Positions 3,114 through 56,400 are shown, counted from the whole stretch's first letter. The stretch is 63,860 bases of DNA, filler included, from Chrysochromulina tobinii (GCA_001275005.1; 6 parts of 6 records of this genome joined end to end with filler, not necessarily neighbours in it), one strand, 5' to 3'. Notes: generated by a model from the sequence alone, not told the origin. Numbers and translations: made by a program.

Positions 3114-5216
3114 GCCACCACCCGTGAAAGCACCGCTGCTCTCGGCGGCCGCGCCGCCGCTGCTGGCCACCTCTGGTTCCACCCTCCTCCGATGGGCCCG
3201 CGGGCGCAGCGGCGAGGGCACCTGCTTCGCGAGGAGCGCCGACCAGCGGATGTGCTCGAACCACGCGTGGGCGCGCATTGTGGCGGGATCGGCCAGACGC
3301 GAATGCTCGTCGCGCACCAGGAGGCGATCGACGAGCTCGCGCGCGCCAGCCGAGGGCGACGGCGGCGCGCCGTCCTGAGCGCTCTCGTCAGGCTCCGGAA
3401 TCTGGCCCTCGCCGCCGTGATCAGGCGGTGTGGCGCCCGGTACGGCGTCCGTGCCGCCGCCCAGTACGGCGCCCAGCTCGAGCGCGCCTGCGGGCCACGG
3501 CGCTCGCCACGGCGCTCGCTCACCGTGGAGGATTTCGTCGATGAGCCGAGCGTGCGCATGCATGTGCTTTTGGTCGGCGGGGTATGGAGGACGACCAACA
3601 AGGCACTCAAACATGAGCACCCCGTAGGACCACCAGTCCGCCGCCACCGTGTACCCCTTGCCTCGGAGCACCTCGGGGGCGGCCGCGAACGGCGTGCCCA
3701 CGACCGTGTAGGTGCGCCCTCCCGAGGTGAGTCGCTCATCGCGCTTGGCCGCGTTCAGGTCGGCGATCTTGACGTGACCGAGCGCGTCGATGAGCACATT
3801 CTCGGCCTTTATGTCGCGGTGGATCACGCCTGCGTCGTGTAGTGCCTCGATGGCGAGCAGCAGCTCAGCGCATACGAAGCACGCGGCAGGCTCGGGCAGC
3901 CGTCCATACGGCCCCGAGCGGATGTGCAGCCCGAGGTCACCGCCGGCACAGTAGTCCATCACGAGGTACAGGTGCTGGCGGGTCTGGAACGCGCTGTGAA
4001 GCTGGACGACGAACGGATGACACGTCAAGGATTCGTCAAGGATTCGTCAAGGATGCGTCAAGGATTCGTCAACGCAACGCACCTGGACGACGAACGGATG
4101 ACGAATCCTTGACAAGATGTCTCGTTCGGCACGCGCGCCGCGCAGAGCGGTCACGCCGCCCTCGGCAGTGGCCTGCTGCGGCCCGATGCGCACCGCCTTG
4201 AGCGCGACCTGCTGCTTCGTATCGCGGCGCACGGCCTTGATGACTGTACCGAAACCACCGCGGCCGAGAACCTTTCGCTGCTCGAAGAGGGCCGCTCCGA
4301 GGGCCGAGGTGAGCGCTTCGGAGACCTCGGCGGAATGCGACTCGGCGCTCGCGAGATCGAGCGCCGACTTGCCCGAGAAGACGCCCGCGCACGCGGTCAG
4401 CAGCGTGTCGGCGTGCGCGGCGAGTAGCGCTTCGACGACGCTCGCTTGTGCCTTGAGGCACGCCCAATGCAGCGGCGTCACGCCGAATCGGTCGGGCGCA
4501 TCCACGCTGGCGCCGTGGCGCACGAGCGCGCGGACCGCGTCCGCCTGGCCGTAGCCCGCCGCATAGTGCAACGCGGTCCGCCCGACAGAATCGCGGTGGT
4601 CGACGAGCACGGCCGGCGGCCGACGGCGGGAGGGGTGGGCGGCGCGCACGCCATTGCGCTCGCCCGCCGCCGCAGAAGAGGATGGCGCAGCGGCGGAGGG
4701 GGCAGAGGCGGCAGCTGAGGGTGGCAGGGGTAGGGCGCTCGGCTGCAGCGGCGAAGACGAAGAAACTGGCAAGTCGGCAGATGGCGCCGCGAGTGCGAGC
4801 TGCTCGCGCAGTCTGTCCCACTGCTTGAGCCGGGCCAAGTCGACTGGCTGCGCGGCCAGCCAATCCCTCGCTTGGATGGCGGAGGTGGGCGAGGTGGAGA
4901 GCGCGGATGAGTAGAGCCCGATGTCACCGACGTCAGCCAGCTCGCCGTTTCCCGCGAAGTCCGGAAAGATCACCGGGATGTGGATGGAGGGACTCCTGCT
5001 GGGGACTGGACTCCTTCCAGAGCCGCTGCTCTTCGCTGAGTGGGTCGCTTCATTCTCTGAGTCGCTGCTGTTCGACGGACGGATCCCCGAGCCAAACAAG
5101 CTCCACCCGCTCCCGCTCTGCGTCGGTGAGCGACGTTGCGCGGCCGCCACCGTCGCCACAATTGCAGCCATCAAGAATAGATTCGGAGGGGCTCGGCGAG
5201 TTTCGTCGTCGGACAC
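2694..5216 (-). CDS. Ankyrin-repeat AGC-group Ser/Thr protein kinase (2 exons; intron 4002-4082)
   Basis: Ankyrin motifs GRTALHYAA and GVTPLHWAC. Kinase motifs LGRGGFGTV, VALK, HPFVVQ|LHSAFQT, HRDIKAENVL, IADLN (DFG variant), VGTPFAAAPE, DWWSYG. A GT..AG intron joins two same-frame ORFs. Confidence 0.92.
4002..4082 (-). other. 81-nt spliceosomal intron with 20-nt flanking duplication and internal 11-nt repeats
   Basis: GTGCGT...CCAG. CTGGACGACGAACGGATGAC occurs at 4002-4021 and 4083-4102. The intron contains an in-frame stop. Confidence 0.88.
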
Positions 5217-5329
5217 CCTCCCCCCCCGTTTGATTGCATGTCTGCATTGCGCGCGTGCCGGAACCTTTCGGCCAACCGTCTACGTCTTCATTGCATGCTT
5301 GAGATTCTTTCTTGACTCTTAGTTTCCTA

Positions 5330-6877
5330 ATGCCCAACGCGGAGTACGTCGGGCCGATCGGCGTCTTCGCGCACGACTTCAAGAATGCGGAGAAGTTGCA
5401 GGCGGCGGCCCGCGGTTATCAAGGCCGTTGCGAAGTCAAACGAATGCACAAGTCGTGCTTGGTCATCATCGCGGCCTTGCGAGGCAAAAGGGCTCGGAGG
5501 GCCTATAGGAAGAAGGTGCGAGCCGCGGAGATAATTCAGAAGAGCGTGCGAAGGAAGCAAGCTGCGCTCGAGGAGAGCCGGTCGCGTGTCAAGGAGCTTT
5601 TCCGTGTCGAGGCCGCCCGCACGATCAAGCGCTTCATTGATGCTGTTGACGACGAGGATCTCGAGGCGCTGGGGAAGGTGGTCACCACCACCTCGACGCT
5701 GATCGTCGAGCTGCAGGGCGCGGGGGTGACCGTGTCGAATACGTACAAGGGCGTGCGCAGCTTCATCTCCAAGAAGCAGGAGGCGTCAAAGAAAGGGCTG
5801 CGCCACGTGAGCCTTGACGTGATGCCGCTGCGGCTCGTCGCAGAGTCCTTCACGTTCCCGCGCAGCGGCACCAAGCCTGCGCTGGTCGCGGAAGCCACGT
5901 ACGTGCGCGACGTGCAGGGTGGGCGGCTCCAGGCGCGCCTCGAGTACGTGGTCCGAACCGCCAACACCGAGGACCGTGAGAAAGGCCGCAAAGCCTGGGT
6001 ATTGCTCAGCATGGGTATCCCTCCCCAGTGTCACGTGGTCACGCACCGCATCATGCACCAAAGGGCGGACTCCTTTCTCGGGCTCACCGCACCGAACCCG
6101 GACGTTACATGCGAAACAACAGCCAAGATGGTGGGCTCGGCACCGCCGCCGCCGCCGCAGCAGCAGCAGCAGGAGGAGGAGGAGCCGCAGCCGCAGCCAC
6201 AGCTGCAGCTGCAGCAGCGGTCGGTGTCACTTCCCGTATTAAGCGTGCCGGCGAAGATCATGGTATACTCGCACGGGGCTGCCGACCAGGTCAAGCGGCA
6301 AGCAGCGAGAGGTTCGATCTTCTCGGATCCAGTACGCATCGAGGCAGCAGTGCTTGACCTCACGAGGTGGCTTGACGAACGCAGCCCGGCCGGGACTCGG
6401 CTCCAGCGTCCAGGCTCCAGGAGTCGGTCCAGGCTCCTGGCTCAGGCCTCAAGCAGCGGCCAGCATGGCTCCAGCCTGGAGCCATGGCCTCCAGAGTGCA
6501 CTCGCAGCCGCAGTAGGGACATTAGGGTGCTGCCGCCGCTGCCGCGTCTACCCGACTTACCGCTGTGGCTCCAGCCACCCGAGAGCCGCGCCATCGCCCG
6601 CGACCGGCGCGCCCTCAGCCGGCATCTCTCGCGCCAGTCAGTCGGTCGGTCGGGTATCTCGTGGTCGCACCATTCCGCGGTCTTCCGCCTCAAGTACAAT
6701 GGCAACCTGCGCACGGGAACCGGCATCCGGCTGGCGCCGACTGTGAAGCTGAAGGTGCCGCTGTGCGGCCACCCAGGACAGGCGACCGCCTCGGCGCTGC
6801 CGCTCATGAGCACGTTACCATCGAAGTTCGAGGCGGAGCCTGGAGAGGAGGCGGCCCTCTCCAACACCATTATTTGA
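5330..6877 (+). CDS. IQ-motif-containing protein of unknown function
   Basis: Long ORF with IQ-like motifs LQAAARGYQGR, IIAALRGKRARR and IQKSVRRKQ, followed by an NTF2-like or unknown region and a low-complexity tail. Confidence 0.65.
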   Translation: MPNAEYVGPIGVFAHDFKNAEKLQAAARGYQGRCEVKRMHKSCLVIIAALRGKRARRAYRKKVRAAEIIQKSVRRKQAALEESRSRVKELFRVEAARTIKRFIDAVDDEDLEALGKVVTTTSTLIVELQGAGVTVSNTYKGVRSFISKKQEASKKGLRHVSLDVMPLRLVAESFTFPRSGTKPALVAEATYVRDVQGGRLQARLEYVVRTANTEDREKGRKAWVLLSMGIPPQCHVVTHRIMHQRADSFLGLTAPNPDVTCETTAKMVGSAPPPPPQQQQQEEEEPQPQPQLQLQQRSVSLPVLSVPAKIMVYSHGAADQVKRQAARGSIFSDPVRIEAAVLDLTRWLDERSPAGTRLQRPGSRSRSRLLAQASSSGQHGSSLEPWPPECTRSRSRDIRVLPPLPRLPDLPLWLQPPESRAIARDRRALSRHLSRQSVGRSGISWSHHSAVFRLKYNGNLRTGTGIRLAPTVKLKVPLCGHPGQATASALPLMSTLPSKFEAEPGEEAALSNTII

Positions 6878-7265
6878 AGTTAAAGAGAACCGAGAACTAA
6901 CGCGAGAACACGTGTTAACAACCTCGATATTGCAGTCACTGCAACTGCGAACGGAAACGCACCGCGGCCACTATAGAGAATATAGACAATGCGCATCGCA
7001 CCCGCGGCCCCGGCGCGCACTCCGCCCCCCACTCGCGTCGAACTCGCCTAACTTCCAAACGGCTGCGCTAGCGGTAGCACACTGGCCACCCTGCCACTGG
7101 CCTCACAGCACTGCACACCCACACACCTCACAGGCCCACCTGCAGCCCCCACACGAGAGCGTGACCGATGGCGTCCACAGAGACAAGGGTGCATTTCGGG
7201 CGCTCGATGCGTACGGCTCAATGCGTACGGCTGTATCTCGCGAGGCGCACGGTAGCGCCGCGGCC

Positions 7266-8807
7266 TCACTTCGCCTGGATGCTGTACATGTCTCCGCCAG
7301 AGCCGAAGAGATTGCAGTGCACGTGCTTCCCGGCGGCGACAGCGTAAACCCGACCGTCGTCCATGGACTTGATGTCAGCAGTCACCATGGAGCCGGAGGT
7401 GACCATCGTGAACAGCGGCTCGGCTGCTTGCACGCCAAAGACGGCGATCTGTGGCGAGACGCCAGCACTCCCCCCCCACGTAGCCACCACGAAATGCTTG
7501 CCATCCTCGGAAGCTGCCATGGCGCTGGGCAGGTTCTGCACCGTAGAGCCAGCGTCGGAGGGATACGGGTACGTCCACAGCGGCGTCATCGGCGCCTTCA
7601 CATCGTGCAACATCACGGTCACCTGTGTGTACGTAAGCGCCGTCCAGCCAATCGCGAGCGTGTGCGAAGCTTCCCCAGCGGGCTCGGATGACCTCTGATG
7701 ACCTCCGATGACCTCGGATGATCTCGGATGAGCTCGGATGAGCTCGTCAGCTTGAATCGTCTGCACGCTGCACGCGGCAGCAAAGGCTGCACCCGGCGCA
7801 GGACCGTTCAGGCTGGCGACCTGGTCGTAGCTGGCCCCATCCTTGGACACGTGGAAGAGATCAAAAGTCTCGAAGCCATAGCCCATCACGGCGCCATCGC
7901 GCGAAAAGCAGAGGGTGCTCGTCGAAAAGTCGAACTTGTCCTGCCAGAGCAACGTGCCTGTTGAGCGCTTGATGACGGCCACGGCCACCTCCTTCGTGCC
8001 GGACACGACCGCCGCAAAGAGGTTGGTGGTGCTGATGAATGCCCGAATGTTGCTGTCCCCGAAAGTAGTGTTGTCGGCGTTCCACACACCCAAGAGTCCG
8101 CCTGTGGCCGCGTCCCATTCGTACATTTGCCCGTGGAAGCCGGTCTGGGCTGGGTACGGAGGGAGGGCGTATGTGACGGCGACGCTGACCACTTGCCCAT
8201 CGGGTGAGACCCCGATGGCGGTCGCGCCAACGTTGCGAATGACGGTCTCCCAAAGCTTAAACCCGGTGCTTGTCACGGTGGCAGTCACCGTGCACTGGGC
8301 CGCGTCGGCACCCACCGCACAGAGCGCGCTAGCCGTGATGTTTTCCGCCGACGCGCTGATGTAGCCTTGGCCCGATGCGGACCACACTACCGTGGAGCTG
8401 TTCGCGTTGTACACGTCCACTGCTGCCTCGGGCCCGCCGTTGTCGCCGAGACTCGCGGCGATGAACGGCACTGGGTCCAACGAACCGTCGCCGTACGAGA
8501 ACGTGGTGGTGTCGTAAATGGCTTCGTCGTCGGAGACGTGGAAGAGCACTTTCCCCGCGAGTGGCATGGGCGCTGACGGCAGCGTGACACGCTTCGTCGC
8601 GTTGTTGTGGATGGAGAAGCTATCCGACTCGGCTTTCCACTGCGCCAGTTGGCGCCGAACCTGTTCGTCGGGGGCGTTGCCGATCATCTGCCGCACCGTG
8701 TGCGGCAGCTCCTGCACTACTTGGCGGGGCACCAATGTGGCAGGGAAAGCGACCGCTACATGCAGGACGCACGCCAGACTCGTGGCAGCCCGAATAAACG
8801 ATGCCAT
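7266..8807 (-). CDS. Secreted beta-propeller-like (PQQ/WD-like) protein
   Basis: Signal-peptide-like MASFIRAATSLACVLHVAVA. Repeated TG.xLW and SxDG turns (TGFKLW, VSPDG, TGTLLW, FSRDG, SEDG). Confidence 0.7.
   Translation of the reverse strand: MASFIRAATSLACVLHVAVAFPATLVPRQVVQELPHTVRQMIGNAPDEQVRRQLAQWKAESDSFSIHNNATKRVTLPSAPMPLAGKVLFHVSDDEAIYDTTTFSYGDGSLDPVPFIAASLGDNGGPEAAVDVYNANSSTVVWSASGQGYISASAENITASALCAVGADAAQCTVTATVTSTGFKLWETVIRNVGATAIGVSPDGQVVSVAVTYALPPYPAQTGFHGQMYEWDAATGGLLGVWNADNTTFGDSNIRAFISTTNLFAAVVSGTKEVAVAVIKRSTGTLLWQDKFDFSTSTLCFSRDGAVMGYGFETFDLFHVSKDGASYDQVASLNGPAPGAAFAAACSVQTIQADELIRAHPRSSEVIGGHQRSSEPAGEASHTLAIGWTALTYTQVTVMLHDVKAPMTPLWTYPYPSDAGSTVQNLPSAMAASEDGKHFVVATWGGSAGVSPQIAVFGVQAAEPLFTMVTSGSMVTADIKSMDDGRVYAVAAGKHVHCNLFGSGGDMYSIQAK
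7682..7746. repeat. 6 x 10-nt GGATGACCTC-type tandem repeat, in frame inside the CDS
   Basis: ggatgacctc tgatgacctc cgatgacctc ggatgatctc ggatgagctc ggatgagctc, flanked by GCTCG at 7682 and 7742. Confidence 0.85.
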
Positions 8808-8984
8808 GTCGATGATTACTGTCGCGACGCTCGTACAGACAGAGCTTCCGTCCGCGGCCACGGAAAAACATGCATCACGGCCACAGAGGGGGGGGACTCT
8901 TTGTTCAGGGTACCCGGTAGTCAATTAGATTCGTCGCGGTCCCCCCGAACTTTGATCAGAACTTTGATCATTTCACACAGTCAG

Positions 8985-9061
8985 TCAATCAGTTTCGTCG
9001 CGGTCCCCCTGCGCTCACCTCACTTGCTCAAAGGACGGCTCCGCTCCCCTCGGTCAACACA
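8985..9061. repeat. Dispersed ~80-nt repeat, copy 1 (partial extra copy at 8921-8945)
   Basis: TCAATcAGTTTCGTCGCGGTCCCCCTG..GCTCACCT..CTCAAaGGACGGCTCCGCtCCCCTCGGTCAACACA matches 11618-11699. Confidence 0.85.
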
Positions 9062-9285
9062 AGTATACCGACTACTGTGTACTCGCCATCATGGTACTCG
9101 CTCGCTCGGCCCAGGCTCGGGCTACTCAATCTCAAATCTCAATTTCGCAAGTGAGGTCGAGGTCTCTCTTACCCTGAACCCCCCTCCCATTTCACACATT
9201 TAACCTCTGAAGTCTGATGATCCTCCGTCGACTGTCCACATTAGGGACCACTCTAAAATCCTCACACAAAATCATTCGTGGACGA

Positions 9286-11541: not shown

Positions 11542-11617
11542 GGGAAAATATCGCGCGGCAGCAACGCACGATCTGCCCGACGCGGTCGCTTTCTCTTTCA
11601 TCAGCATGTCCAGAAGT

Positions 11618-11699
11618 TCAATTAGTTTCGTCGCGGTCCCCCTGTACGCCATGCTCACCTAAGTCTCAACGGACGGCTCCGCACCCCTCGGTCAACACA
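11618..11699. repeat. Dispersed ~80-nt repeat, copy 2
   Basis: Direct-orientation match to 8985-9061 with a few substitutions and indels. Confidence 0.85.
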
Positions 11700-11976
11700 T
11701 CCGTTGCCCCTCGTTTCTCATTGTGAATGGGGGCTCCTCCCACGCCGCCGGCCGACACGCCGACTCCCCTTGGGGAAAACGGCAATTGGAAAACGGAGAG
11801 GAGTGCTGCAGTGCTGGGCGCGGTGTTCACAAACTTTGTTTAGACTCTGGCTGTTGCATGTTTCTTCTCAGAAATGTTTGGACGTGCAAACTTCCGAACT
11901 TCCGAAACTCCCAAAACTTCCTCGACTCCTGCACTCGACTCCCGTGTGTGGTGTGGTCGATCCGAGGAGCAACAGC

Positions 11977-13728: not shown

Positions 13729-14438
13729 TCTCCCAAAGAAGGCAGCTGATCTCCCGCAGTTGTTTGACGTGGCGTGCAGAGTCGCACCCCGCCTGTGCGC
13801 CTACGATGAACCCCGGCCTCGCACGTTGAGGCGCGATCATTTGTACATCGCGATTGCCATGTATGCTCCTGGTTCCGTTATGGCTTATTAGCTAATATAT
13901 ATACACTAATGTTACAGCATGACAGTGTGGGGCGTGTCCTTCCGACTGTCTTGTGGTGTGTCCCGGGTGTGCCGTGCTCGCTATACATGTCAGAACTCAA
14001 TCTTGAATCATTTTGCTAATATCTATCTCGTCACGCGAGTTGCTCGCGCGCATGCTCGCGCGTTAATCCCATTTAATCCGTACTAAAATATGGCGACCAC
14101 AGGACGCACCGCACTCGAGTCTCGACTACGAAACCGGCCTCGCCTGAGCCACCGCGCCGTGCTTTTGCCGTGCGGCACAAGCTGATACAATGTTTTTCCC
14201 CCCTTTCCGTACGAGTTACACATTACAGCTGCGACGAAACCGCAGAGTTCGAGAGTACGGTACACCGGCAACCGGGTGACGGTTCAATAGACCAAACCGT
14301 TTCAATTTGGAATTTCGCGTGCGCGTGCGTGGGGGGAGAATACATCCCAAAGCCGCACACATCCGGACACATCGGAAACGAAGGAAATATGATCCGAACT
14401 CCTCAAATCGAATCGAAGAAATCGAAGGAAACGAAGAG

Positions 14439-16543
14439 TTATACTCGTCGACTTTGTGTGATGTCGTTGTGGGTTCGGAGGGCGTCGCTTTGAGAGCGCG
14501 CTTGTTTGGTCGCGCCCGCGCCTGCCTCGCTCAGATGATAGGGCCAGGAGCGTACGCCGTCGAGCGAGCTAACGCAGTGCCTCCGCTGCGCGGCAATCCG
14601 CTCGCCCGCCGCGCCAGCCTCGCGCTCAAGACGGCGCTCGAGCTCGCGCATCTCCGAGACGCCCTGGGCGTCGTCTGGTTCGGTCGCGCCAAAGTGGTTG
14701 TCGAGCCCGCGATACACGACACGCGCGCTCTCGTCCATGATCGGCTCGCTGTCGGCGTGTACCTCAAGGAAAGTACACGTAGCCAGCTGCAGGACACTCA
14801 CCTGCCGTCAAGGAGCGAGCATGCGGTCATCAGTGGCAATCAAGCCACGCTCATGTTCGCCGTGCATGCATGTGGTCATCAGAGGCCATTCCGTTACGGC
14901 ACTCGCAGCGACGTGGCGAGCTGCGAGGCGGCCACGGCATGGTTCCGGTTTCGTCACGGAATGGTTCTCGTTTCGTCACGGAAGGGTTCTGGAGTCCGGA
15001 AGGGTTCTGGTTTCGTCACGGAAGGGTTCCGGTTTCGTCACGGAAGGTTTCTGGTTTCGTCACGGAAGGCGCTCACTGAATGGTTCTGGTTTCGTCGCAC
15101 GAGGGAGCCCTCGACGATTGCATGCGCGCTGTTGTGGCACACGAGCCCGTCATTCCGGTGCCCCTCCACGATGCAACTGGACAGCTTGAGCACCGCCTCA
15201 CCGCTCACGGCAGCGCCCAGAGCGTTGCACCGGAGGTCGCAGCACGAGACGGCGACCATCCCCGCCCCTCGCAGGAGTAATCCCATGTGACCGTTGTGCT
15301 CAATGACAGATCCCATCAGCTCGCTCGGCGCGCGGCTGAAGAACTTGAGGCCCGCGAGCGCGTTGCCAGCGACCAGGCAGTCGTGCAACCATAGCCGTGC
15401 CGCGTGCTGGACGGTCACACCCGACCTGAGATGGTCACGGATGTATGTGGCTCGGCACAGCACGCGTGCGTTGCCCTGCACCAGCAAGCCAGTCGACGGG
15501 CGCGCTGGTACGACGGCTGTGAATGTGAATGGTCCGTCGTTCACATTCACAGCTGGTACGACGGTCGCCGTTGCCGCCACCGAGAGCGCCGCCGCCGCCG
15601 CCGCCGCCGCCGCGCTTGTCGAGCCGGGGGGCGCGTGAGGGTCGGCCCAGCCTCGGCTCAGGACGCCCAGGATCTCGCTGCCCGAGATCGCAACCTCGGC
15701 GTGACCTCCCGCGCGCACGCCGCCGTGCACGACGCAGTCGTCGAGCGCCCAGATGCCTTGCTCGCCCACCGCCACACACCGATAGTCGGCCACCGGCGTC
15801 GCCCCCGGCGGCATGTCCGGGTCCTCTGCAGCATCGAACCCGCCACCCAACCCCACCGGGGGCGCTGCCGGCGCGCCGACGCCGCCTGTTGCGTCTGGTA
15901 GCGTGAGCGTGAGCCGGCACAGCTGCCCTCGGCCGTTGGCGAGCACCAGCTGCGCACGCAGCACGGTCGCCAGCGCGAGCACCGACGTGGCGCCACCCCA
16001 CGTCGCGGTGGGCACCTGTGCTGACGCAGCGCCTACGATTCGCACCGAGGCGCTCACCCTCAGTGTGCCCTCGTCGAAGATTCCAGCCGCGAGGCAGAGC
16101 GTGTCACCGTCGCGCGCGCTCTCGAGGGCTGCCCGAAGGCTCGCAAAGTGGCAGGCGGCGCCGCCCACACGCAGCGCGCGGGCGCTGCCCAAGAGACCGG
16201 AGCACGGCCATGAAGCATGCGGCAGCGGCAGTGAGGCCACTCGAAGCGCGTAGTACTCGAGCACACTGATCGTCGTGCCGACCGTGCGCGCCACCCGGGT
16301 AGACAGCTGGGACGGCCAGGGCATCCAGCCGCGTGCCTCGATCATCGCCTTAATGCACTGCTCAATGAGTGCGGTGCTTAAGATTTGCCTCAGCGCCTTG
16401 CATGTTCCTGAGAGCGCCGCGAGGGCTCCGTGACAAGAGACGCGCTCCGCAATCTCCTGGAGCAGCGCGTCTGGGATCATGTCGAGGCGGCTGGGCGAGC
16501 CGAGTTCCTCCAGCGTGTCGCCCATCATCTTGTCGCCCATCAT
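14439..16543 (-). CDS. F-box plus right-handed parallel beta-helix protein (FBXO10/11-like architecture); intron 14802-15076
   Basis: F-box LDMIPDALLQEI..LSGTCKALR, FASLRAALESARDGDTLCLAAGIFDE and PbH1-like repeats. A phase-0 GT..AG intron joins NHS|VSVLQLATC. Confidence 0.8.
14802..15076 (-). other. 275-nt intron filled with ~21-22-nt exon-derived tandem repeats
   Basis: GTGAGC...GGCAG. About 6 units of CCGTGACGAAACCAGAACC(C/A)TT resemble the exon end GTGCGACGAAACCAGAACCATTC. Confidence 0.7.
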
Positions 16544-23551: not shown

Positions 23552-23808
23552 CTGATGAGGGGGATAAGGGGCGCTGTGGAGAGCACTTGTATGCAGCTTA
23601 ATGTCCTCGGCACGTGACTCGCGCACCTGCACTCAGAGCCAATCAACGGTGATCCGAGTCAGTGGCCATCAATGGCCATCAGTGAGCTCGCGCACCTCCG
23701 CGCGGTCCTCATCAGATACTCATCAGATACTCATATTGATAGGTCATCAGAGGCCATCAGAGCTCAGAGGTCATCAGAGATCATCAGAGGTCATCAGAGC
23801 TCGCGCAC
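23552..23808 (-). repeat. Stack of three intron-like insertions, each starting at a copy of AG|GTGCGCGAG
   Basis: CTCGCGCACCT occurs four times (~23543, 23618, 23688, 23800). A 25-nt direct repeat lies at 23530-23554 and 23605-23629. Fillers are CTGATGACCT-type and the stack ends in CCCTCATCAG. Confidence 0.75.
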
Positions 23809-23967
23809 CTCCTTAGAGTAGTGAAAGTATGTCCCCCCCTAGAATTTAGAAAAGTGCGCCCGGTGTGCTCGGGCCTGAATACAACCTCGACGACGTCGGA
23901 ACGTATTACCGGAAAAGCAGGGAAAAGTGCGAAAACACCGGTCCCGCGCGCGCGGTCCCCGCACTGG

Positions 23968-28073: not shown

Positions 28074-31000
28074 ATGGAAGCCTTCCGCGCCGCCATCAAA
28101 GCGGCGGTGACGGCCAATGGCGGCGAGCCACACCATGCAATTCGGCATGAGCTGCGCGGGAGGCAGCCGTGGGTCGGTGACGGCTGGGTGGATGGTGACC
28201 TCGAGCTTCTTGCGCTCGCCATGTCCATCCGGCCGTGCCAACCCGACGAGGTCATCATCACATCGGCCGAGCGTGGCGATTGGTTTGGCGTCGTCCTCTC
28301 CGGCTCGCTCGCCGTCGAGAAGAAGGGCGCGCAGCTCGCCGTGCTCGGCCTGGGCGACGTTGTCGGCGAGATGGCGGCGCTGCACCCAGCAGCCGAGCGG
28401 TGCGCTACCGTGCGAGTGCGGGGGGCGAGTCCGAGCCGTCTCGCAACGATGACGACGAAGCAGCTGCAGAACTTTGTGCGCGACTGGCCGGGCCTTGGCA
28501 CGCGGCTCTTGCGCACGCTGGGGCGCATCGCAGCCGTGCGCCAGCTCGAGAATGGAAGGAGCGACCTATGCGCCTTGGTGCCGAGGAGCATAGAGTGGTC
28601 GATGACCGTGCCTGACCCTTCGACGGAGAAGTTCGATCGCTTCGACCTGCACGAGGCGTACCGCGCGCGGCTGGCGACGCACCTCTGCCGGCAGCTGGAG
28701 GTGGCGCCGGCGAGCGCGGGCCGCTTCGATGACGCCGAGCTCTCACTGCTCGTCGACCGCGCGCAGTTCCAGCCATTCCGCTCGGGACAGCGCCTCGTCG
28801 GCGAAGGCGAGCACATCGACAGCGTGATGGTGCTCCTTCTCGGCTCCGCCTCCTTCGAGCGCTGGTCCGTCGAGGTGGGCGAGGGCGGCGTCCTTGGCGC
28901 CCATGAGTTCTTCGGAGTGCCGTCGCTGAGCGCCGCCTCGGCGGTTGTGGCCAAAGGGGACGGTGTGCTCGCAGGCTGGACAACCCTGCATTTAACCGAA
29001 CTGATGGCGCATGACGGTCCGCTGATGATGCCGCTGATGACCTCGGATGACCTCTGATGACCTCTGATGGCGCACGACGGTCCGCTGATGGCCTCTGATG
29101 ATCCTCTGATGACCTCTGATGATCCTTGATGACCTCTGATGATGATGACCTCTGATGATCCCTGATGAACCGTCCAAAGAGTTCCCTCGGATGGCCTTTG
29201 ACGAACCTCTGATGGCCACTGATGAACCTCTGATGACCTCACTCATCAGGCCCGCTCGCGTACAAGCTCATCCAGTTCATCGGCCGCTTCGCGATGGGCA
29301 TCGGCGCGACCCTCTGCCACGTCCTCCGCGAAGACGCTGTGCATGCAAACACCATGCCGCAGCGCGAGTTCCGTGCGGGGGTTGGAGGCTCGCATAAGCG
29401 TGCTGGTGGCGTGCGATACGTGGTCATTGGCGGCAGCGGCAGCAACGGCGGCGGCAGCGGCAGCAGCAGCGGCGGCAGCGGCGGCAGCAGCGGCAGCGGC
29501 GGCAGCGGCGGCGGCGGCGGCGGCGGCGGCGGCAGTTCGGCAGCGGCCGAGGCTGTGTACATAGAGAAGATGCAGCAGCAGGCGGAGCGGCTACGTGCCC
29601 AGCTGAGCGAGAATGAGCGGCTGTCCGCCGCGCTGCAGGTGAGTGTCGTTAATTGCCTCTGATTGCCATTGATTACCACTGATTGCCACTGATTGCCACT
29701 GATTGCCAGCTGAGCGCGAGTGAGCGGCTGTCCGCCGCGCTGCAGGAGAAGACCCACGCGTCCGCGCGCTATCGGCTGCAGGTGAGTGTCGTTAATTGCC
29801 TCTGATTGCCACTGATTGCCACTGATTGCGTCCGCGCGCTATCGGCTGCAGGTGAGTGTCGTTAATTGCCTCTGATTGCCATTGATTGCCACTGATTGCC
29901 ACTGATTGCGTCCGCGCGCTATCGGCTGCAGTACGCCGCCGCAGCCAAGCGGCTCGAGCAGCGCGACGTTGACAATCGACGGCTACAGACCGAGCTGGAA
30001 GCGGCGTACACGCAGCTCGAGCAGCAGCGGGGCGCGAGCTCGGAGGCGCATGCCATCCTCGAAGAGCTCGCGGGTGTGGTTACGGCCGTGCTGGACGATC
30101 TGCCCAATCTGGATCACGAGATCCGTTCGCCCAACACGGCGCCCAATCTGGAGCACGAGGTCGGCCCGATCGGGTCGCCCGACACGGCGCCCGCGTACGG
30201 CTCCGCACCTTCGGATCTCGGCGAGGGCGAGGGCGCGCTCACGACGGCGCGCACCCCCAGGCAGCTGGCGCCCACGACGGCGCTCCCGAGCCTGCGCGCC
30301 GCCCTGAGCGCCGCCCTGCTCTCCGCGGTGCGCCTGCTGAGGGAGCACGCGCTCACGACGGCGCTCACGAGCACGCCCACGACGGCGCTCGAGCGGCCGC
30401 ACCCCAACTCGCCCGTCGGGTCCGCGCGCCAAGCGGCGCTCTCGCCGCCCAAGACGGCGCTCTCGCCGCCCAAGACGGCGCTCTCGTCGCTTGGGTGCAG
30501 CTCGGCCGGGGAGGCGCCCAAGACGGCGCCCAGCCTCCACAGCAGGCGCGGTTTCGCCAGCCGTGCCGCGTCCCTCGCCCACGACGGCGCGTGCGAGCCC
30601 GGGGCACCGGGCGCCCAAGACGGCGCCAGCGCGTGCAGCGCGACCGCGATGCTCGCAGACGCAACCGGCGGCGCTCGAGACGGCGCGAGCGCCGTCGTGA
30701 GCACCACCGACGCGCAGCCGGCCGCCCCGCCGGTGCACCACGCGAAGAGCGGCGCGGCGGCGCCCTCTCAGAACAGGGGGGCAACGGGCACGACGGGGAC
30801 GACGGGCGCCGCCGCGGGCGCGCCAGGCGCCGCCGCGGGCGCGCCTGCCACGCGCGAGTCCGTGTGCGAGATTGGCGTGCAGGCGGGCGGCTACCGCGTG
30901 CCTTACCCGAGCGTGGCTGCAGCGCCCCTGAGCGGCGAGGAGACGACACGCCCTCTGAGCCGCGCGTCTGCGCTGGTGCGTCGGGCGCACTCGAGCACGC

Positions 31001-46722: not shown

Positions 46723-48307
46723 GGCGCCCCCGGTGCCGCTGCCGCCGCTGCCGCCCCTGCCGCCGCTGCCGCCCCTGCCGCCCCTGCCGCCCCTGCCGCC
46801 CCTGCCGCCCCTGCCGCCCCTGCCGCCGCTGCCGCCGCTGCCGCCGCTGCCGCCGCGGCGTCGTCTCGTAACGAATCCGCGGCAGGGTTGATGAGGGACG
46901 CAATCATAGGCAATCAACATGCAATCAACAGTAACGAATCCGCGGCAGGGTTGCTCGTGTTCCGCTCCGCTGGTCGTACAGAATTGCTCCGCTGCCTCGG
47001 CTGGCGCGTTTATTCAGATCCGTTCCAAGTTGAACAAGCCGTGGCTGTGCTCGAGGCGGCCGGCCAGTACGAGCGAGCCGCAATCACAGCCATCTTCCAA
47101 AGCGGCGCGCATCCGGCGTACGATGAGCTGGGGCGAGCGGTGCGCTGCCTGGAGCGAGGTGGTGCGGCGAGCGCGGCGACGGCGCCCGAGCGTTCCTCGG
47201 CGCTCCGCATGATGGCGATGGTGCTCGCTGGCTTCCAGCCACGCGCACCTCTGTGGTGGTCGACTGTGCACTCGACCGCTGCCTCACTCTCGTCGCCGCA
47301 CCTGCGCCTGCTGCTCGCCGTCCTGTGCTCGTCCCTCTCGAGCATCGGCCTCAGCGGGAATCACTCGGGGGTCCGCAGCAGTACTGACGGCGGCAGCGGC
47401 GGGGGAAGGGGCAGCGGCGCCGGCGCCGGCGCCGGGGGCCTCGTGCGTGACACCTCGTTGGACTCATCGGGGCCCGATGTGATCGACATCTCCCCCTCCA
47501 CCTCGCCAGTCCCCAGCTCTCCCCCCTATTCTCCCCCCGTGCGCTCTCCGGTGCTACGAGGCACGCCGATGCGCTCGGGTGCCGACTTCGTCGGCGTCGC
47601 CGTCGGCCCCGAGCCGCCCCACGTTACCACGTCGATCCCTGGTGGAGGGCACGGCGCACATTTAGAGCACGGCGCACATTCAGAGCACGGCGACTCTTCA
47701 CAGATGCTGCAGCAGCTGGTGGTGGAGGCAGAGGGAGGCGCGCTCGATGGCGATCCGCACGGCGGCGCGCTCTCGGCTGCCGATGACTTTTACACCGACG
47801 CCCTCGCGATGGCATGCCGCTTCCTCCCCGACACACAGCTCCGCTCCCTCCTGCGCCGCCTGGTGACCGTAGCACGCGACGCTGGCTCGCTCGGCGCTCT
47901 CAGCCTAACGGGTCTCGGTCCTTCAGCGGTGCCCCTCCTCCAAGCGTACTTGGATCGAACTGCCGACGTGCAGTCGGTTGTGCTGCTCTGTGCGCACGGG
48001 CCTGCCTCTCTCCTCCGCCACGAGCGCGTGCAGCGATGGTTGAAGCTGTACGCGGAGATGCTCAACCAGTGGCGCTTATACCACGCGCGCTGTGCGCTCG
48101 ACATCGCGGTGGCCGCGAAGCTGAGGGAAGCTGGGCCGCCGCTGCCGCCGCCGCTGCCGCCGCCGTCTGCTTCGTTGCGCCCGAGCCTGGCGACCCTTGT
48201 GGAGCCCAGTGCACAGGTGTACGCGCGCTGTGGCTACTGTGCCAACCCGTTGACGACCAATGGGGCGCGCCATCTTGGGCGCTCTCCCGCGTCGGAGAGC
48301 GGCGGGA

Positions 48308-48341
<34 letters not shown>

Positions 48342-48843
48342 AAACGGCGGGAGCGGGAGCGGGAGCGGCGGTGGCGGCGGCGGCGGTGGTGGCATCGGCA
48401 GCGGAGGCGCCGGGGGTCGCGCGGGCGGCGGCGACGGCCCCGGGGGATCAGGGGGGTTTGGCGGCGGCGGTGGCTCTCCAATGGCACTCACGAGCCGACA
48501 ATCGACGTCTGCGCGCGGCGCTCCCAAGGCCACTCGCTGCCCGAATCCACGCTGCCTCAAGCCGCTCCCCCGATGCGCCGTCTGCCAGCAGCATCTCGGC
48601 TGCCCTGATCCCGACCCGCTCGGACGGCCTTCGCCGGACGTCGACGCGCCCGCCGGCGCGCCCGACGAGGCGTGGGGTGCCATCTCGTCGGCCTTTGGCC
48701 ACTGGATGGTGTGGTGCCAGCACTGCCGCCACGGAGGGCACGCCTCACACATCCTCGAGTGGTTTGAGCAGCACAACGAGTGTGCCGTCTCGGGCTGCTC
48801 GTGCAAGTGCGCACAGCTCGACCGCGCTGCATTGTCAACATAA
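46723..48843 (+). CDS. MIOS: GATOR2 complex protein MIOS/Sea4, C-terminal part (5'-truncated)
   Basis: LQAYLDRTADVQS, W...Y.EMLNQWRLYHARCALD and C-terminal CLKPLPRCAVC...WMVWCQHCRHGGHASHILEWF..H.ECAVSGCSCKC zinc/RING domain. Confidence 0.9.
46868..46953. mobile_element. 40-nt antisense insertion with 23-nt target-site-like duplication
   Basis: GTAACGAATCCGCGGCAGGGTTG at 46868-46890 and 46931-46953 flanks ATGAGGGACGCAATCATAGGCAATCAACATGCAATCAACA. Confidence 0.75.
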
Positions 48844-49119
48844 GACGTTTTCCTTTTCGTCGCATGGGTTTTGTCGGTGCCCGATCTAATGGGTAACATC
48901 AAACATGTACAGGACTGTGTGGCTTTGGCGAAATTTCTATAAACCACGAAATCTCTACAAATCTCTGCATGACTGTGATCGAACCCCGGACGACCAAAGC
49001 CAATATGCTCCCGGCGCCGGACTAGGCGACACACCACCTTCAAATTCGAAATTCCCCCACCGCACACCACGCAGGGGATCCCTTCATTATACGTATAGCG
49101 CGGCTCATTTATAACTCAC

Positions 49120-52008: not shown

Positions 52009-52367
52009 TTGTGAGCAGAGGTCGGAGGGGGCGGCGCAGGGTTACACTCGCAGAACAAGTACGTTCCGGGGAACTAGCAGAATTTGCGGCCTGTCCACCC
52101 GTCTTCGCATGCGGGAGTGGCGACGCGGATGACGAGGCGCAACGGCTGCGCTTCCGATCAAGTACGTACCGGTAGATTCCGTCGGCGCTCAATGAATCGC
52201 GCCGAACTTTCTAGATACCAATTTTGGTCTCAGAGCGGCGCGCTTTCTGCTTTTAAATTCATGTGGGGCTCCACATTCATTTTATAGCTGTGCCGGTTCA
52301 CACTCGAGATTGGACTTGCGCTTGACTTGCCTTTGACGACGTTCGTGTTTGTGCCCGCCGGAAGTCC

Positions 52368-53294
52368 ATGAAGCAGTACGCACTGTGCAACCATGCGTCC
52401 TCCGAGCAAAGTCCAGTTTTGCGACGCTCATGGGAGAGCCCCGACCCGCTGCTCCGCACGCTCGGAGTGCGCTACCTTCAGATTGGTGGCGACATTTGGA
52501 ATCGTTGTCACGAAGGGTGGCTGAACATTGACGCGGCGTTCAAGAGCGAGGGACTTCATGGTGAATCCCAATTCGGCACGGACGATAAGGGTGGGCACAA
52601 CATGGCCATCTCATTCTCTGAGATCACCGTGCTGCCATTTGCTTCCAATAGTGTGCAGATGGTATACTCTGAACACATGATCGAACACATGCTCCCCGAT
52701 GCGGGTAGCAACCTGCTCCACGAGGCCTACCGCGTGCTCGTGCCGGATGGCATCCTCCGGCTCGCGACACCCGACCTGAGAAGGTACATGCTTGGCTACG
52801 TCGAATCCGGGGCGCGAGGCCAGGGCGGCACCAACGCCTTCTTGCGCGTGCATAGCCAGCGCTTTGGACCGATGCAGCAGCCGCGGCACCGACCGCCAAC
52901 CGACGCGACGATCGTCAACAATATCTTCCGCAATTACGGGCACAAGTGGGTGTACGACTTTGAGGAGCTGCGCTCGCGCGCGGTCGACGCGGGGATCGCA
53001 GCCGAGGATGTGTGCCAGAGCGATCGAGTTGGTCGCGGGCTCCCGCAAGCACTGCAACGGGCGCGCGACCGCGCCACCCACCCGCGCAATGAGTCGCTAG
53101 CGTGTTGGCTCGATCAAGCCGTGCGTGAGGATGAGTCGCTCTACGTGCACCTCGTCAAGCGCCGCCCGTGGCCGCCGAGCAATCGCTCCCACGTGCCCCC
53201 CTTTTGCCGGCCCGTGAGGGACTGGCTGCCATGCCATCCGGGGACGAGGGGCCGTGGGGGGCGGAGGCGTGGGGCGGGGGTCATGGGGCTCTAG
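52368..53294 (+). CDS. Class I SAM-dependent methyltransferase (type 11-like)
   Basis: LQIGG..GWLNID and LPFASNSVQMVYSEHMIEH..LLHEAYRVLVPDGILRLATPDL, then GHKWVYD. Confidence 0.85.
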   Translation: MKQYALCNHASSEQSPVLRRSWESPDPLLRTLGVRYLQIGGDIWNRCHEGWLNIDAAFKSEGLHGESQFGTDDKGGHNMAISFSEITVLPFASNSVQMVYSEHMIEHMLPDAGSNLLHEAYRVLVPDGILRLATPDLRRYMLGYVESGARGQGGTNAFLRVHSQRFGPMQQPRHRPPTDATIVNNIFRNYGHKWVYDFEELRSRAVDAGIAAEDVCQSDRVGRGLPQALQRARDRATHPRNESLACWLDQAVREDESLYVHLVKRRPWPPSNRSHVPPFCRPVRDWLPCHPGTRGRGGRRRGAGVMGL

Positions 53295-53488
53295 AAAAGT
53301 TTGTCTAATGTCTCACCGGACTGGAATTCCTACCTGACGAGGCGGGTGGGGGGTGGGACGCTAGAGCGAGTGGGGATGTCTGTTTTGGCTGAGGTTTTTT
53401 GGCGCGAAGACGCGTTCTGCTTCTCTCGCGCGCCTCAATCCCTCAGCAAAAGAGGCAAGTTTTTGCTCGGGCGCTCGTCGCCCTGGTC

Positions 53489-56400
53489 ATGATCAATGAT
53501 CAGCTGCGCCGGACGATTGCGCCGGGCTCGCAAGCGCAGGAGCTCTGCTACGAGTCATGCTCGTCCACGAGCTCCGCTCCTGACGACGACGTGGCCGCTG
53601 CCTTCGGAGGCCGCGGCGGCAGCGGCCGATGGTCGCCCTTCACTGCAGGCAGCACGGCAGCCATGCCAAGCTCGCCATTTCTTGCCTCGCCAGACGGTAA
53701 CTCGTCCTCGTGCGGCGGGAGTGCTGTGGCGCTCACGCCCGAGCTGCGACCGGCCGAGGCTCCCGTCGCGCTCGAAGACTGGTCACCGACGAGTGGCGAC
53801 ATACTTGCACCGAGTGCAACCGTAGAGGCTGCTGCTGCGCAGGCAGCAGAGACAGCGGTGCTGATCTCGCCACCGGCAGTTGGACAGGCTCGGCAGCCCG
53901 CCTCGTCAGCGCTGACTGCACGCCAACTGCTCTTGGCGATGGACGCGGATGGCGCCGCACCAGCGGCCTCGGAGGATGCGGCGCTGGCCGGGGCGGCGCT
54001 GGCCATGGCGGCTGAGGCGCTTCCTTTTGGCTCGACTGCGATCCCGCTTTGCCCTGTGGGTGACGAGCCGCGTATGCGTGCTCAGCTGAGCCGCTGCCGC
54101 GCGCAGCTCCAAGCGGCACAGGTGCAGCTGCAGCTGGCGACCTCGCAACTGGGCGCTACGAGTGAACGGCTAGAGTGCTGCGAGAGGGAGCATGCAACGC
54201 TCACACATAAGGTGGCCGAGCTCGAGACGGTTCAGCGGGCGCTCGGAGTCACCGAGGGCTCCACCGAGGAGGCCGACGGCCACGGCGTGCTCGGCGGCGC
54301 CGTCGCGGGCGCCCGAGCGGCCCGTGTGATCCCTTCTCTCGATGCCCTGCGAGGGGCTGTGGGGCGCCTCGCCGACGAGCGGATCGAGGCGCTCGAGACG
54401 GCGCTCAGCACCAAGGACGCGCAGCTGCACGAGCTGCAGGCGCTCGCGTGGGGCGCGTATGCCGACGACAGCGCCGTCGCGGCCGAGGTGCAGCGGTTAC
54501 ACATCTGATGACATCTGATTACACATCTGATGACATCTGACATCTGATGATATCTGATTGCCTCCCTCATCAGGTGCAGCGGTTACACGACGAGTTGGCG
54601 CATGCATCCTCCAAGCATCGACAGCTCACGGCGCACGCACAGGCGGCAGAAGCCACGTTCGCTGAGAGGGTTCGCAACTCTCATGCCGAGCAGGAGGAGC
54701 TCCGCGCGAGCATCGCCGCCCTAACGGCTCAGCTCCGCTCCCAGCAGGCGTCGGAGGCGTCTCTGCGTGCGGCGTACGAGGACGTGAAGGCATCAGCAAG
54801 TGCGAGCGCGGCGGAGGCGGCGAGGCTGGCTACGGTCGAGGCAAGGTTACTCGCCACGCTAACGGATCGGGAGCAACAGCTGCACGTGGCCATCGCACAG
54901 CTCGAAACCCACGCCGCCGAGATCGATGCCTTACGGCGCGGCTCGTCCGCCCATCAGCTCTCCGCGCGCTATGATGAGCAGATCGAGATGCTCCAACGGC
55001 AGGTAAGCGAGCAGGCCGCGCGGGATGCGCAGGCGCTGTATCAGGCGCAGGCGGCCGTTGAGGCGGCGAGGGCGGAGGCGCGTGAGGCACACGAGCGCGC
55101 CCGCCGCAGCCGCGAGCTCGCGGAGTGCCTCGAGATCGAGCAGGCGGCCCATTCACAGACCAGGGCGCAGGCGGCCGAGCGGTTGGCGGCGATGGCCGAG
55201 CGCGAGCGGGCGTTGCTCAAGGAGCTCTCCACTGTCCAGAAGCAGCAGCAGCAGCAGCAGCAGCAGATTCAGCAGCAGCAGCAGCAGATCAAGCAGCAGC
55301 TCAACGCTGCGCCCAACTCGCCTGCTGTCCACACAGCCGGCGGTTGCGCATGGATCGAGGACAGCACGATGAGCGCCTTCCCCAACCCAGTCACCGCGTC
55401 GCCGCCCTCGCCCCCCACCGCGAACGCCGACAGCGGCAGCGCCGGCAGCGATGGGCTCGAGCCGGAAGGGGACGCTGCATCGGGGGGTCTCCCCGTCGTT
55501 TCTTCGCCGCCAGCCCAGGGACTCGTCCTTCCTAATATGGGACTCGTCCTGCCCGAGTCGCTCGTCGCGTCGTCGTGGTCACCGCCCTCGGCTTCGTCAA
55601 CCTCCTCGGCACGCTCGACGCACTCTTTGCGCTCCACGCGCGCCATGCCGATGTCGCCCTTGCCGCTCGCGCCGCCGCCGCGCGGCCTCGAGGCCATGCT
55701 GCAGTCGGCTCAACGTGAGATCGAGGGGCTGCACGACGTGGTGCGTCAGCAGATGCACGTTCAGGGCGTCCTCGAGAACGAGCGCGCGGCCGTGCTCGAG
55801 CGTGAGCAACGGGCGGTCAGCGAGCACGTCGCGCTGCTCGCGCACACCGAGAGGCTAGAGACCTTGCTTGACGACGCTCGCCAGACGGCGACCCGAGCGC
55901 GTTCGCAAGCGGCGCAGGAGGTCGAGGCACGTGCGGCCGTTGAGGCGCAGCTCTCGGAGGCCAAGGCGCGCACAGCGCAGCTCGAGGCCAAGCACGCGCA
56001 GCTCGAGGCGAGCGCCGCCATGCAGCTCGAGACGGCCGTTCGGCAGCTGACCGACACGGTGGCCGCTCATCTCACGGAGATCTCGATGATGCGAGAGGTG
56101 GCCGAGCGCGAGAAGGCTGAGCTCAAGAGCGAGCTCAAGGCGCAGCATGCAATCGCGCTCAAGGCCGCCGAGGAGCGGCTGCACAACGCGCCGCCGCCGC
56201 GCCAGCCGCCTCAGCCGCATCACGACGCGCTGCTCGGCGAGGTGCCCAGCACGGCGCTCGAGACGGCGCTCCATAATAGGCAGGAGGTGCCCAGTGCGGC
56301 GCCGCCCCTCGGCGAGGCGCTTCGTCAAACCTCGGAGCTGTGGGGACAGCCGAGCGCAGAGGCGGCGGCGGCGGTGGGCGCGGCGATGGGCGCGGCGGTG

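What the first reader, a model, noticed from the sequence alone, without database searches (positions are those of the whole stretch)
4002..54588. Recurrent intron-generating system: exon-duplicating insertions filled with ~10-nt CTGAT(G/T) repeats
Seen: at least seven independent loci (4002, 7682, 14802, 23552, 29017/29639, 46868, 54488) share a design. An insertion is flanked by a direct duplication of host coding sequence of variable length (17, 20, 23, 25 and ~40 nt in the clearest cases) and is filled with short reiterated units, mostly CTGATGACCT, CTGATTGCCA or CTGATGACAT. Two polarities occur: (A) new GT donor plus an acceptor copied from the upstream exon's CAG, and (B) a donor copied from the downstream exon's GT plus a shared ...CCTCATCAG acceptor. 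The unit contains CTGAY, matching the branch-point consensus, and CTGATGA...TCATCAG forms a short terminal inverted repeat. Known: introners in Micromonas and Aureococcus are non-autonomous DNA transposons that co-opt a short fixed-length TSD as a splice site. Inference: long variable duplications plus stuttered filler fit staggered-break or target-primed reiterative synthesis better than DDE cut-and-paste, so this may be a distinct route to intron gain.
Basis: partly seen in the sequence, partly recalled or inferred. Interest (0 to 1): 0.9.

Follow-up and report, generated by a model that had tools for sequence, protein, structure and literature searches.

The report
Introns built from copied intron halves
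In this alga-type genome many gene interruptions are bracketed by an 11-48-base copy of the gene's own sequence and are missing from related genes; they were likely made by sloppy DNA repair that pastes in one end of another intron and takes the second splice signal from the copied stretch, which would be an undescribed mass route to new introns.

Summary
Real, and wider than reported. Exact or near-exact exon duplications flank inserts at 4002, 23552, 29639, 29782/29852, 46868 and 54488. 14802 and 29017 carry only decayed copies; 7682 has none. Excision restores reading frames. In 154 metagenome loci plus the window, 126 of 292 repeat arrays have a flanking repeat of 12 or more bases, against 22 of 1457 controls; 47 curated events run from 11 to 48 bases with no fixed length. 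Relatives are uninterrupted at 4002, 29017 and 46868, and a 96%-identical kinase carries such an insert at a site empty here. Corrections: no terminal inverted repeat; the 10-mers are not required (an unrelated 45-base filler leaves the same footprint); the 4002 filler is copied from its own exon; 46868 is antisense and probably unspliced. Best reading: microhomology-primed repair synthesis captures half an intron; RNA-templated insertion is the main rival. Splicing of these introns was not shown by RNA. The scan noted the footprint before on another piece of this genome (e1-2577349). Not found in print in ten searches.

The parts
4002..4082 (-). Type A intron (81 nt) in an ankyrin-kinase gene: new GT donor, 11-nt stutter, acceptor from a 20-nt copy (4002-4021) of the upstream exon end (4083-4102)
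   Evidence: excision gives 0 stops, retention 1; P0084, P0085, P0149 run through with one copy
4099..4113 (+). Exon stretch whose 15-nt reverse complement forms the filler unit of the 4002 intron (local inverted template)
   Evidence: 15-nt exact inverted match; its first 11 nt occur 0 times in 154 loci and 4 times in the window; hairpin z -5.28, 0 of 200 shuffles
7683..7746 (+). 10-nt family array, antisense to ORF 7266-8924, in frame and stop-free, no flanking duplication; does not fit the design
14802..15076 (-). Predicted 275-nt compound intron: 22-nt stutter resembling the adjacent exon (14933-15069), decayed 25-nt copy of the downstream exon start (14911-14935), CTGAT units
   Evidence: donor 15076 gives 0 stops, donors 14935 and 14919 do not; 17 of 25 match
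23552..23626 (-). Type B insert (75 nt): donor from a 25-nt duplication (23605-23629 and 23530-23554); filler is the second family's core joined to the first family's acceptor
   Evidence: host is a glycosyltransferase fragment with no upstream exon found; length is 3n, so the frame test is uninformative
23684..23812 (-). 10-nt arrays between further copies of a 16-nt donor-like stretch upstream of the 23552 insert
29017..29249 (+). Predicted 233-nt intron in a cNMP-binding gene: about 21 units, an internal 27-nt copy of exon end plus donor, family acceptor; only a decayed copy of the downstream exon start
   Evidence: retention gives 24 stops; P0019 (62% identical) aligns gap-free across the junction
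29639..29745 (+). Type A intron (107 nt); 40-nt duplication 29599-29638 / 29706-29745 with 2 mismatches
29782..29931 (+). Two back-to-back type A introns (29782-29851, 29852-29931) on one 24-nt duplication; first 30 nt identical to the 29639 intron, 143 nt upstream
   Evidence: all four introns out gives 1266 codons with 0 stops, keeping any one gives 5-24 stops
46868..46953 (-). Type-B-shaped insert in antisense orientation in a MIOS exon: 23-nt duplication (46868-46890, 46931-46953), 40-nt filler, 63 nt in frame; probably kept as 21 extra residues
   Evidence: 5 of 5 aligned relatives are open across the site
54488..54573 (+). Type B intron (86 nt): donor from a 17-nt duplication (54486-54502, 54572-54588), units that reuse the end of the duplicated stretch, family acceptor
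   Evidence: excision gives 0 stops over 8589 nt, retention at least 8 in every frame

Best explanation
These inserts are bracketed by an 11-48-base copy of the host exon, carry one splice site of their own and are absent from related genes; they are likely new introns made by microhomology-primed repair synthesis that copies one end of an existing intron into a broken exon. Inferred steps: (1) a break or staggered nick pair opens an exon; (2) a free end primes on 2-5 matching bases in a template, most often one of the very abundant CTGAT-array introns, sometimes the neighbouring intron or the exon's own hairpin; (3) the polymerase copies about 25-185 bases, slipping on the 10-11-nt units and switching templates; (4) it rejoins 11-48 bases behind where it left, which makes the duplication; (5) selection keeps products in which the copied part gives branch point plus donor and the duplicate gives CAG (type A), or branch point plus acceptor and the duplicate gives GT or GC (type B), and which reach about 60 bases; antisense products survive only in frame. 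Each new intron would be a new template, so the process would feed itself without a transposon. Shown: duplications, polarity, frame restoration, absence in relatives at protein level, junction microhomology, mosaic fillers. Inferred: splicing, the enzyme, and a DNA rather than RNA template.
For: 126 of 292 arrays with a flanking repeat of 12 or more nt vs 22 of 1457 swapped-flank controls. Type B 53 of 96 anchors vs 12 of 500; type A 31 of 83 vs 3 of 500. 47 curated events: median 21 nt, commonest length only 5 of 47. Junction microhomology mean 3.3 nt in the 13 of 47 events where the filler starts directly in units, vs 1.0 for simulated blunt joins, p 4e-5. Fixed-end overlap: AG before the site in 12 of 26 type B, GT after it in 10 of 21 type A. 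Local templates: 15-nt inverted copy at 4002; donors of different sites within 3 kb share 25 or more nt in 3 of 21 pairs vs 6 of 823 distant pairs, Fisher p 0.001. Mosaic filler at 23552 and a second filler family, 15 of 33 vs 1 of 300. Gain, not remodelling: P0085 (72%) and P0149 (68%) are open across 4002, P0019 across 29017, five MIOS relatives across 46868; P0020 (96%) has a family insert and a repeat of about 20 nt at a site empty in the window and in three other homologues. SD-MMEJ is described as priming on 1-4 bp repeats and leaving direct or inverted templated insertions (PMC7407515, passages).
Against: No RNA contig was listed across any duplication-flanked intron, so splicing is inferred; P0084 may be a transcript or an empty allele. 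Local inverted templating is not general: 0 of 47 curated events reach 9 nt and 1 of 68 non-family inserts reaches 12 nt vs 1.2% of controls (the family events were selected for generic filler, and 4002 itself was filtered out of the 68). The rank test for near vs far donors is not significant (p 0.13), and the 25-nt cut-off for acceptors is not either (1 of 35 vs 9 of 1951, p 0.16; rank test p 1e-4). Copies stop at the template's splice site: in 34 of 45 events the duplicate starts at or inside the final AG, and even the antisense insert at 46868 ends there; that suits an excised-intron RNA template. The second family has a fairly fixed 5' edge (12 of 15 within 0-19 nt of its core), like a discrete element. 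Outgroup evidence is from predicted proteins, not aligned DNA.
Confidence: 0.5

Rival explanations
1. Target-primed reverse transcription: a non-LTR or other reverse transcriptase copies excised intron RNA (or short SINE-like RNAs derived from introns) into staggered nicks, giving long variable duplications, truncated copies and priming by a few matching bases.
For: Variable duplications; type B has a fixed 3' end at AG and a variable 5' edge; no template exon bases carried over in 34 of 45 events; the antisense insert at 46868 also ends at the acceptor; a few end sequences recur at unlinked loci (one 12-nt donor 4 times, another 3 times among 83). Non-LTR-derived introners are reported, about 5% of classified cases (PMC12130899, passages).
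Against: Type A has the opposite polarity (fixed 5' end). No poly(A) or simple tail at the 3' junction of type B. 12 of 13 confidently oriented events are sense. The 4002 filler is an inverted copy of its own exon, which no intron RNA supplies. No reverse transcriptase family among 30 window ORFs or 76 of 246 long locus ORFs scanned, a small sample of the genome.
Confidence: 0.3
2. Old introns remodelled: partial recombination with cDNA or local duplication puts a copy of the neighbouring exon into an intron that was already there, and the arrays expand afterwards by slippage.
For: AG|GT context is common at the sites; array length differs between relatives at a shared intron (L006 vs L008); tandem re-iterations of whole introns are frequent.
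Against: Relatives lack the interruption at 4002, 29017 and 46868, and the window lacks the one in P0020. P0149 and P0085 look genomic (contigs to 6019 and 3060 nt, frames that run into non-homologous sequence; inference). An antisense insert cannot come from an old intron at that site.
Confidence: 0.1
3. A classical introner family (non-autonomous DNA transposon) whose copies later decayed and re-duplicated.
For: One splice site comes from the duplication, as in known introners; Chrysochromulina and other haptophyte MAGs have introner families, one with a 4-bp TSD (PMC9860276).
Against: No fixed duplication length, no terminal inverted repeat, no end-to-end family.
Confidence: 0.04
4. A dedicated reiterative polymerase (telomerase-like, internal RNA template) adds 10-nt units to broken ends.
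For: Strict period: 1069 of 1195 CTGAT spacings between 8 and 13 nt are exactly 10; 2-5 nt priming overlap with the unit.
Against: At least seven unit variants are common; other fillers have no units or locally derived ones; the fixed donor and acceptor ends would need a second template.
Confidence: 0.04
5. Assembly artefact of repeat arrays.
For: Contigs break in the arrays, and the longest listed contigs of run X1 do not span 29428-29902; the window is a gapped scaffold.
Against: Copies differ by mismatches in 28 of 47 curated events; excision restores frames; two events recur verbatim in separate records (L052/L062, L106/L132); 14 DNA runs hold 0.96 of the words of 26100-36000, though these may not be independent.
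Confidence: 0.02

Closest known systems
Intron gain by staggered double-strand-break repair, Daphnia pulex (PMC4202315; reviewed in PMC3443670)
   Same: A copy of the adjacent exon end at the far side of a new intron; internal repeats in young introns (55 of 90 there); gains that differ between close relatives.
   Different: Repeats there are 4-12 bp (33 cases) and fillers are AT-rich with mostly unknown source; here 11-48 nt, with fillers traceable to shared intron-end families, neighbouring introns or the host exon, in two polarities.
Introners / introner-like elements (Micromonas, Aureococcus, Symbiodinium, Polarella glacialis, Chrysochromulina MAGs; PMC9860276, PMC12130899, bioRxiv 10.1101/2020.10.14.339549)
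   Same: One splice site carried in, the other taken from the target duplication, in either polarity; many related introns in unrelated genes.
   Different: Known TSDs are fixed per family (3-9 bp; 3, 4, 5 or 8 nt in Polarella); copies match end to end. Here only one end is shared. The 2022 survey required similarity at both intron boundaries (section 15), so half-copies would likely be missed.
[quoted passage not shown]
   Same: Short microhomology priming, direct or inverted templated insertions, several rounds of synthesis, partial tandem duplications with inserts from nearby or ectopic donors.
   Different: Not reported, in the passages read, as a systematic source of spliceable introns; the enzyme was not tested here.
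Tandem genomic duplication of an AGGT exon segment (PMC3443670)
   Same: Splice signals arise from duplicated exon sequence.
   Different: There the intron is only the duplicate; here foreign filler supplies the branch point and one splice site, and duplication lengths show no strong bias to 3n (19 of 47).
10-11 bp tandem repeats enriched in Emiliania huxleyi introns (Read et al. 2013; recalled, paper not held)
   Same: 10-11-nt period, intron location and strand bias, as I recall it.
   Different: I recall no link there to exon duplications or intron gain; unit sequences were not compared.

Membership tests
Introner (DNA-transposon/MITE type) | Short fixed-length target-site duplication (3-9 bp) | tested here: not met
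   11-48 nt, median 21, commonest length 5 of 47; shorter ones were below the detection cut-off
Introner (DNA-transposon/MITE type) | Terminal inverted repeats | tested here: not met
   4 of 26 type B, 0 of 21 type A
Introner (DNA-transposon/MITE type) | Copies similar from end to end | tested here: not met
   one end is a locus-specific exon copy; several unrelated fillers
Introner (DNA-transposon/MITE type) | One splice site taken from the duplication | tested here: met
   GT or GC at the copy start in 21 of 26 type B; CAG or TAG at the copy end in 19 of 21 type A
Introner (any type) | Presence/absence at orthologous sites | tested here: met
   protein level only: P0020 vs window, P0084, P0085, P0149; P0019; MIOS relatives
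Introner (any type) | Spliced out of mRNA | tested here: inconclusive
   RNA contigs of X15/X16 skip two ordinary introns but none was listed across the duplication-flanked ones; frame restoration
Introner (any type) | Autonomous partner element | tested here: inconclusive
   no transposase or reverse transcriptase family in 30 window and 76 locus ORFs; no whole genome held; pattern absent from viral contigs
Staggered-break intron gain (Daphnia type) | Direct repeat of the adjacent exon end at the opposite intron end, above chance | tested here: met
Staggered-break intron gain (Daphnia type) | Short repeat (4-12 bp) and locus-unique filler | tested here: not met
   45 of 47 are 12 nt or longer; fillers fall into shared families
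Non-LTR / SINE retroposition | Variable-length duplication with one truncated end | tested here: met
Non-LTR / SINE retroposition | One polarity with a poly(A) or simple-repeat 3' tail | tested here: not met
   two opposite polarities; type B ends in a splice acceptor
SD-MMEJ / polymerase theta end joining | Microhomology at junctions | tested here: met
   3.3 vs 1.0 nt, 13 of 47 scorable events, p 4e-5
SD-MMEJ / polymerase theta end joining | Insertions templated from flanking DNA | tested here: inconclusive
   clear at 4002; near-donor excess 3 of 21 vs 6 of 823; no general inverted excess
SD-MMEJ / polymerase theta end joining | Dependence on polymerase theta | not testable with these tools
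   needs genetics

The most novel reading that the evidence does not exclude
Introns beget introns directly: the ends of existing introns, possibly as excised intron RNA, are copied into exons at staggered breaks, with the 11-48-base duplication supplying the missing splice site, as an ongoing, self-amplifying, transposon-free source of a large share of this lineage's introns.
Probability: 0.3. Interest if true: 0.9.

Novelty: new variant of a known kind. Interest (0 to 1): 0.72.

Why it matters
Most gained introns have no known source. Here the source sequence, both junctions and the order of copying can be read at dozens of loci in under 0.4 Mb of enriched DNA, and gains differ between relatives whose proteins are 96% identical. 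That makes repair-templated or RNA-templated intron gain directly testable in an organism that is held in mixed culture with DNA and RNA runs. It would also explain where 10-nt intronic arrays come from and why end-to-end introner screens could miss a whole class.

Tried and rejected
No whole genome is held for the window and the records behind the loci are not held, so counts rest on 154 pattern-selected loci plus the window (389,027 nt, overlaps included) and give no genome-wide rate. The three-unit pattern is absent from viral contigs. RNA: the lay at 88% likeness was swamped by repeat-family contigs; 83 joints were not shown; RNA cover of the cNMP gene was thin; run X21 gave only short fragments. 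No RNA was laid on 1-18600 or 46730-57200, which leaves splicing at 4002, 7682, 14802, 46868 and 54488 open. A search for longer kinase relatives found only a 33%-identical insect kinase. General inverted local templating: rejected. Terminal inverted repeat: rejected. Two-step origin through an in-frame tandem duplication: not supported (19 of 47 lengths are 3n; junction overlap blurs this). The protein atlas gave no taxon signal. 'Haptophyte' comes from note e1-2577349 and from my recall of such repeats in Chrysochromulina; I did not test it. Five locus pairs from different records were aligned: none showed a clean presence/absence of a duplication-flanked intron. Grouping loci as culture-type for rests on record names only.
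Full report
1. Observation. The window is GC-rich eukaryotic DNA with ordinary genes on a gapped scaffold. Exact or near-exact duplications flank inserts at 4002 (20 nt), 23552 (25), 29639 (40, 2 mismatches), 29782/29852 (24, three copies), 46868 (23) and 54488 (17). CTGATGA is over-represented, 36 vs 6.98. 7682 has no duplication and lies antisense in an open frame. 29017 and 14802 have decayed copies only.

2. Are they introns? Removing the insert gives 0 stops for the kinase (1 if kept) and for the coiled-coil gene (8 or more in every frame if kept). The cNMP gene gives 1266 codons without a stop when all four inserts are removed and 5-24 stops if any one is kept; donor 15076 with acceptor 14802 gives 0 stops. 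P0084, 99% identical, reads through the 4002 site with one copy of the duplicated peptide; it may be a transcript or an empty allele. RNA contigs of runs X15 and X16 skip two ordinary introns, but none was listed across the duplication-flanked ones; that lay was swamped by repeat contigs. Splicing is therefore inferred. The 46868 insert has no exact register, is antisense to MIOS and is in frame; it is probably retained.

3. Scale. Summed contig depth in run X1 is about 84,000 over the 29017 array against about 120-130 in nearby single-copy bins, so the arrays are very common in the sample. Of 292 arrays, 126 have a flanking exact repeat of 12 nt or more, against 22 of 1457 swapped-flank controls; these include tandem re-iterations and are not all independent. 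Anchored tests: 53 of 96 acceptors and 31 of 83 donors, against 12 and 3 of 500. After dropping re-iterations, duplicates that contain units, nested hits and spans of 260 nt or more (27 of 53 and 10 of 31 rows dropped), 26 type B and 21 type A events remain, 11-48 nt, median 21. Span is 62 nt or more in 46 of 47, and duplication and filler lengths are inversely related (rho -0.40, p 0.005), which fits a minimum intron size but may partly reflect how the boundary was called. 12 of 13 confidently oriented events are sense (32 of 45 were not confident).

4. Gain. P0085 (72%) and P0149 (68%) are open across 4002, P0019 (62%) across 29017, and five MIOS relatives across 46868, where the alignment in the linker is loose. 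P0020 (96%) carries three family acceptor units and then restarts about 20 nt upstream in a shifted frame, at a site that is empty in the window, P0084, P0085 and P0149; its donor would be GC (inferred from the translation). This is protein-level evidence; five DNA pairs showed no clean empty site.

5. What the filler is. The common unit has a strict 10-nt period with many variants and contains CTGAT, which fits the branch-point consensus (established knowledge). It is not required: an unrelated core of about 45 nt shows the same duplication in 15 of 33 anchors vs 1 of 300, and the 23552 insert joins that core to the first family's acceptor. At 4002 the unit is a 15-nt inverted copy of the adjacent exon, found in none of the 154 loci. 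The intron at 29782 shares its first 30 nt with the one 143 nt upstream; near donors share 25 or more nt in 3 of 21 pairs vs 6 of 823, though the rank test is not significant. Inverted local templating is not general (0 of 47; 1 of 68). Where the filler starts directly in units (13 of 47), the junction overlaps the unit by 3.3 nt vs 1.0 expected. There is no terminal inverted repeat.

6. Mechanism. I favour microhomology-primed repair synthesis that leaves the exon, copies one end of an intron and rejoins 11-48 nt behind (0.5). It accounts in one scheme for both polarities, mosaics, local templates and antisense products. Target-primed reverse transcription of intron RNA (0.3) explains better why copies stop at splice sites (34 of 45), but selection for splicing forces that in sense inserts, and only 46868 is a selection-free case. 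Remodelling of old introns (0.1), classical introners (0.04), a telomerase-like enzyme (0.04) and artefact (0.02) fit worse. No reverse transcriptase or transposase family appeared in 30 window and 76 locus ORFs.

7. Known systems. PMC9860276 (passages, section 15, supplement searches) gives 3-9 bp TSDs, lists haptophyte families and needs similarity at both intron ends; three motif searches in its one held supplement, which was cut when stored, found nothing, so the full lists may still hold these introns. bioRxiv 10.1101/2020.10.14.339549 (abstract, section 5): fixed TSDs of 3-8 nt. PMC12130899 (passages): no mention of haptophytes in the main text; supplements not read. PMC4202315 (passages): 4-12 bp repeats. 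PMC3443670, PMC7407515, PMC11282704, PMC4580454, PMC8379373, PMC12480563 (passages) and PMC8469720, PMC11782384 (abstracts; the latter reports 4-30 bp repeats near the borders of 213 assorted introns) do not describe this system in what I read. Ten searches turned up no description; the library lacks most subscription papers, and the Emiliania genome paper is recalled only. The scan's note e1-2577349 reports a 15-nt case and over a hundred related introns for another piece of this genome; it gave me the dinoflagellate lead and the taxon, and I count it as a lead, not support.

8. Verdict. A real, recurrent, lineage-specific intron-gain footprint. It works like an introner in how it gets its splice sites and like break repair in its junctions, and it is a member of neither as defined.

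Noticed in passing
window 8930-9009: 16-nt duplication around a 48-nt AT-rich filler with short internal repeats, just upstream of ORF 7266-8924; no splice register.
   Followed up: no
window 15504-15564: 13-nt duplication around a 35-nt palindromic filler, 48 nt in frame in a beta-helix gene; looks like another locally templated insert.
   Followed up: no
window about 35016-35166 (-) and 27257-27367 (+): Two ordinary introns skipped by RNA contigs. The first carries a 14-nt stutter of its own acceptor region at 35040-35098.
   Followed up: partly
window 57275-57461: In-frame tandem duplications (30 nt twice, 39 nt three times) in the long coiled-coil gene; the 39-nt unit holds the antisense family heptamer.
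   Followed up: no
window 36306-36670: 56-nt tandem array, 6.5 copies, 94% matches, next to a CT run.
   Followed up: no
window 20513, 37383, 39569, 46623, 62069: Five scaffold gaps, each two runs of 44 N around 12 bases; the MIOS frame starts at one.
   Followed up: no
window codon within 4099-4113: P0084 has Lys where the window has Arg, inside the stretch that pairs with the 4002 filler; the hairpin may have overwritten the exon.
   Followed up: no
window 23014-23554: Run X1 holds a contig with 18 differences and 15 gap letters here: a second copy of the glycosyltransferase fragment.
   Followed up: no
L009 and L077: Homologous element with repeat-rich ends and a swapped interior, carrying a CTGAT array of different length.
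   Followed up: no
L106 vs L132; L006 vs L008: A 21-nt tandem duplication in one record only; an 80-nt difference in array length at a shared intron.
   Followed up: partly
L044:1040, L068:1597, L068:3375, L058:607: Duplication-flanked inserts with other short stutter units outside the CTGAT family.
   Followed up: no
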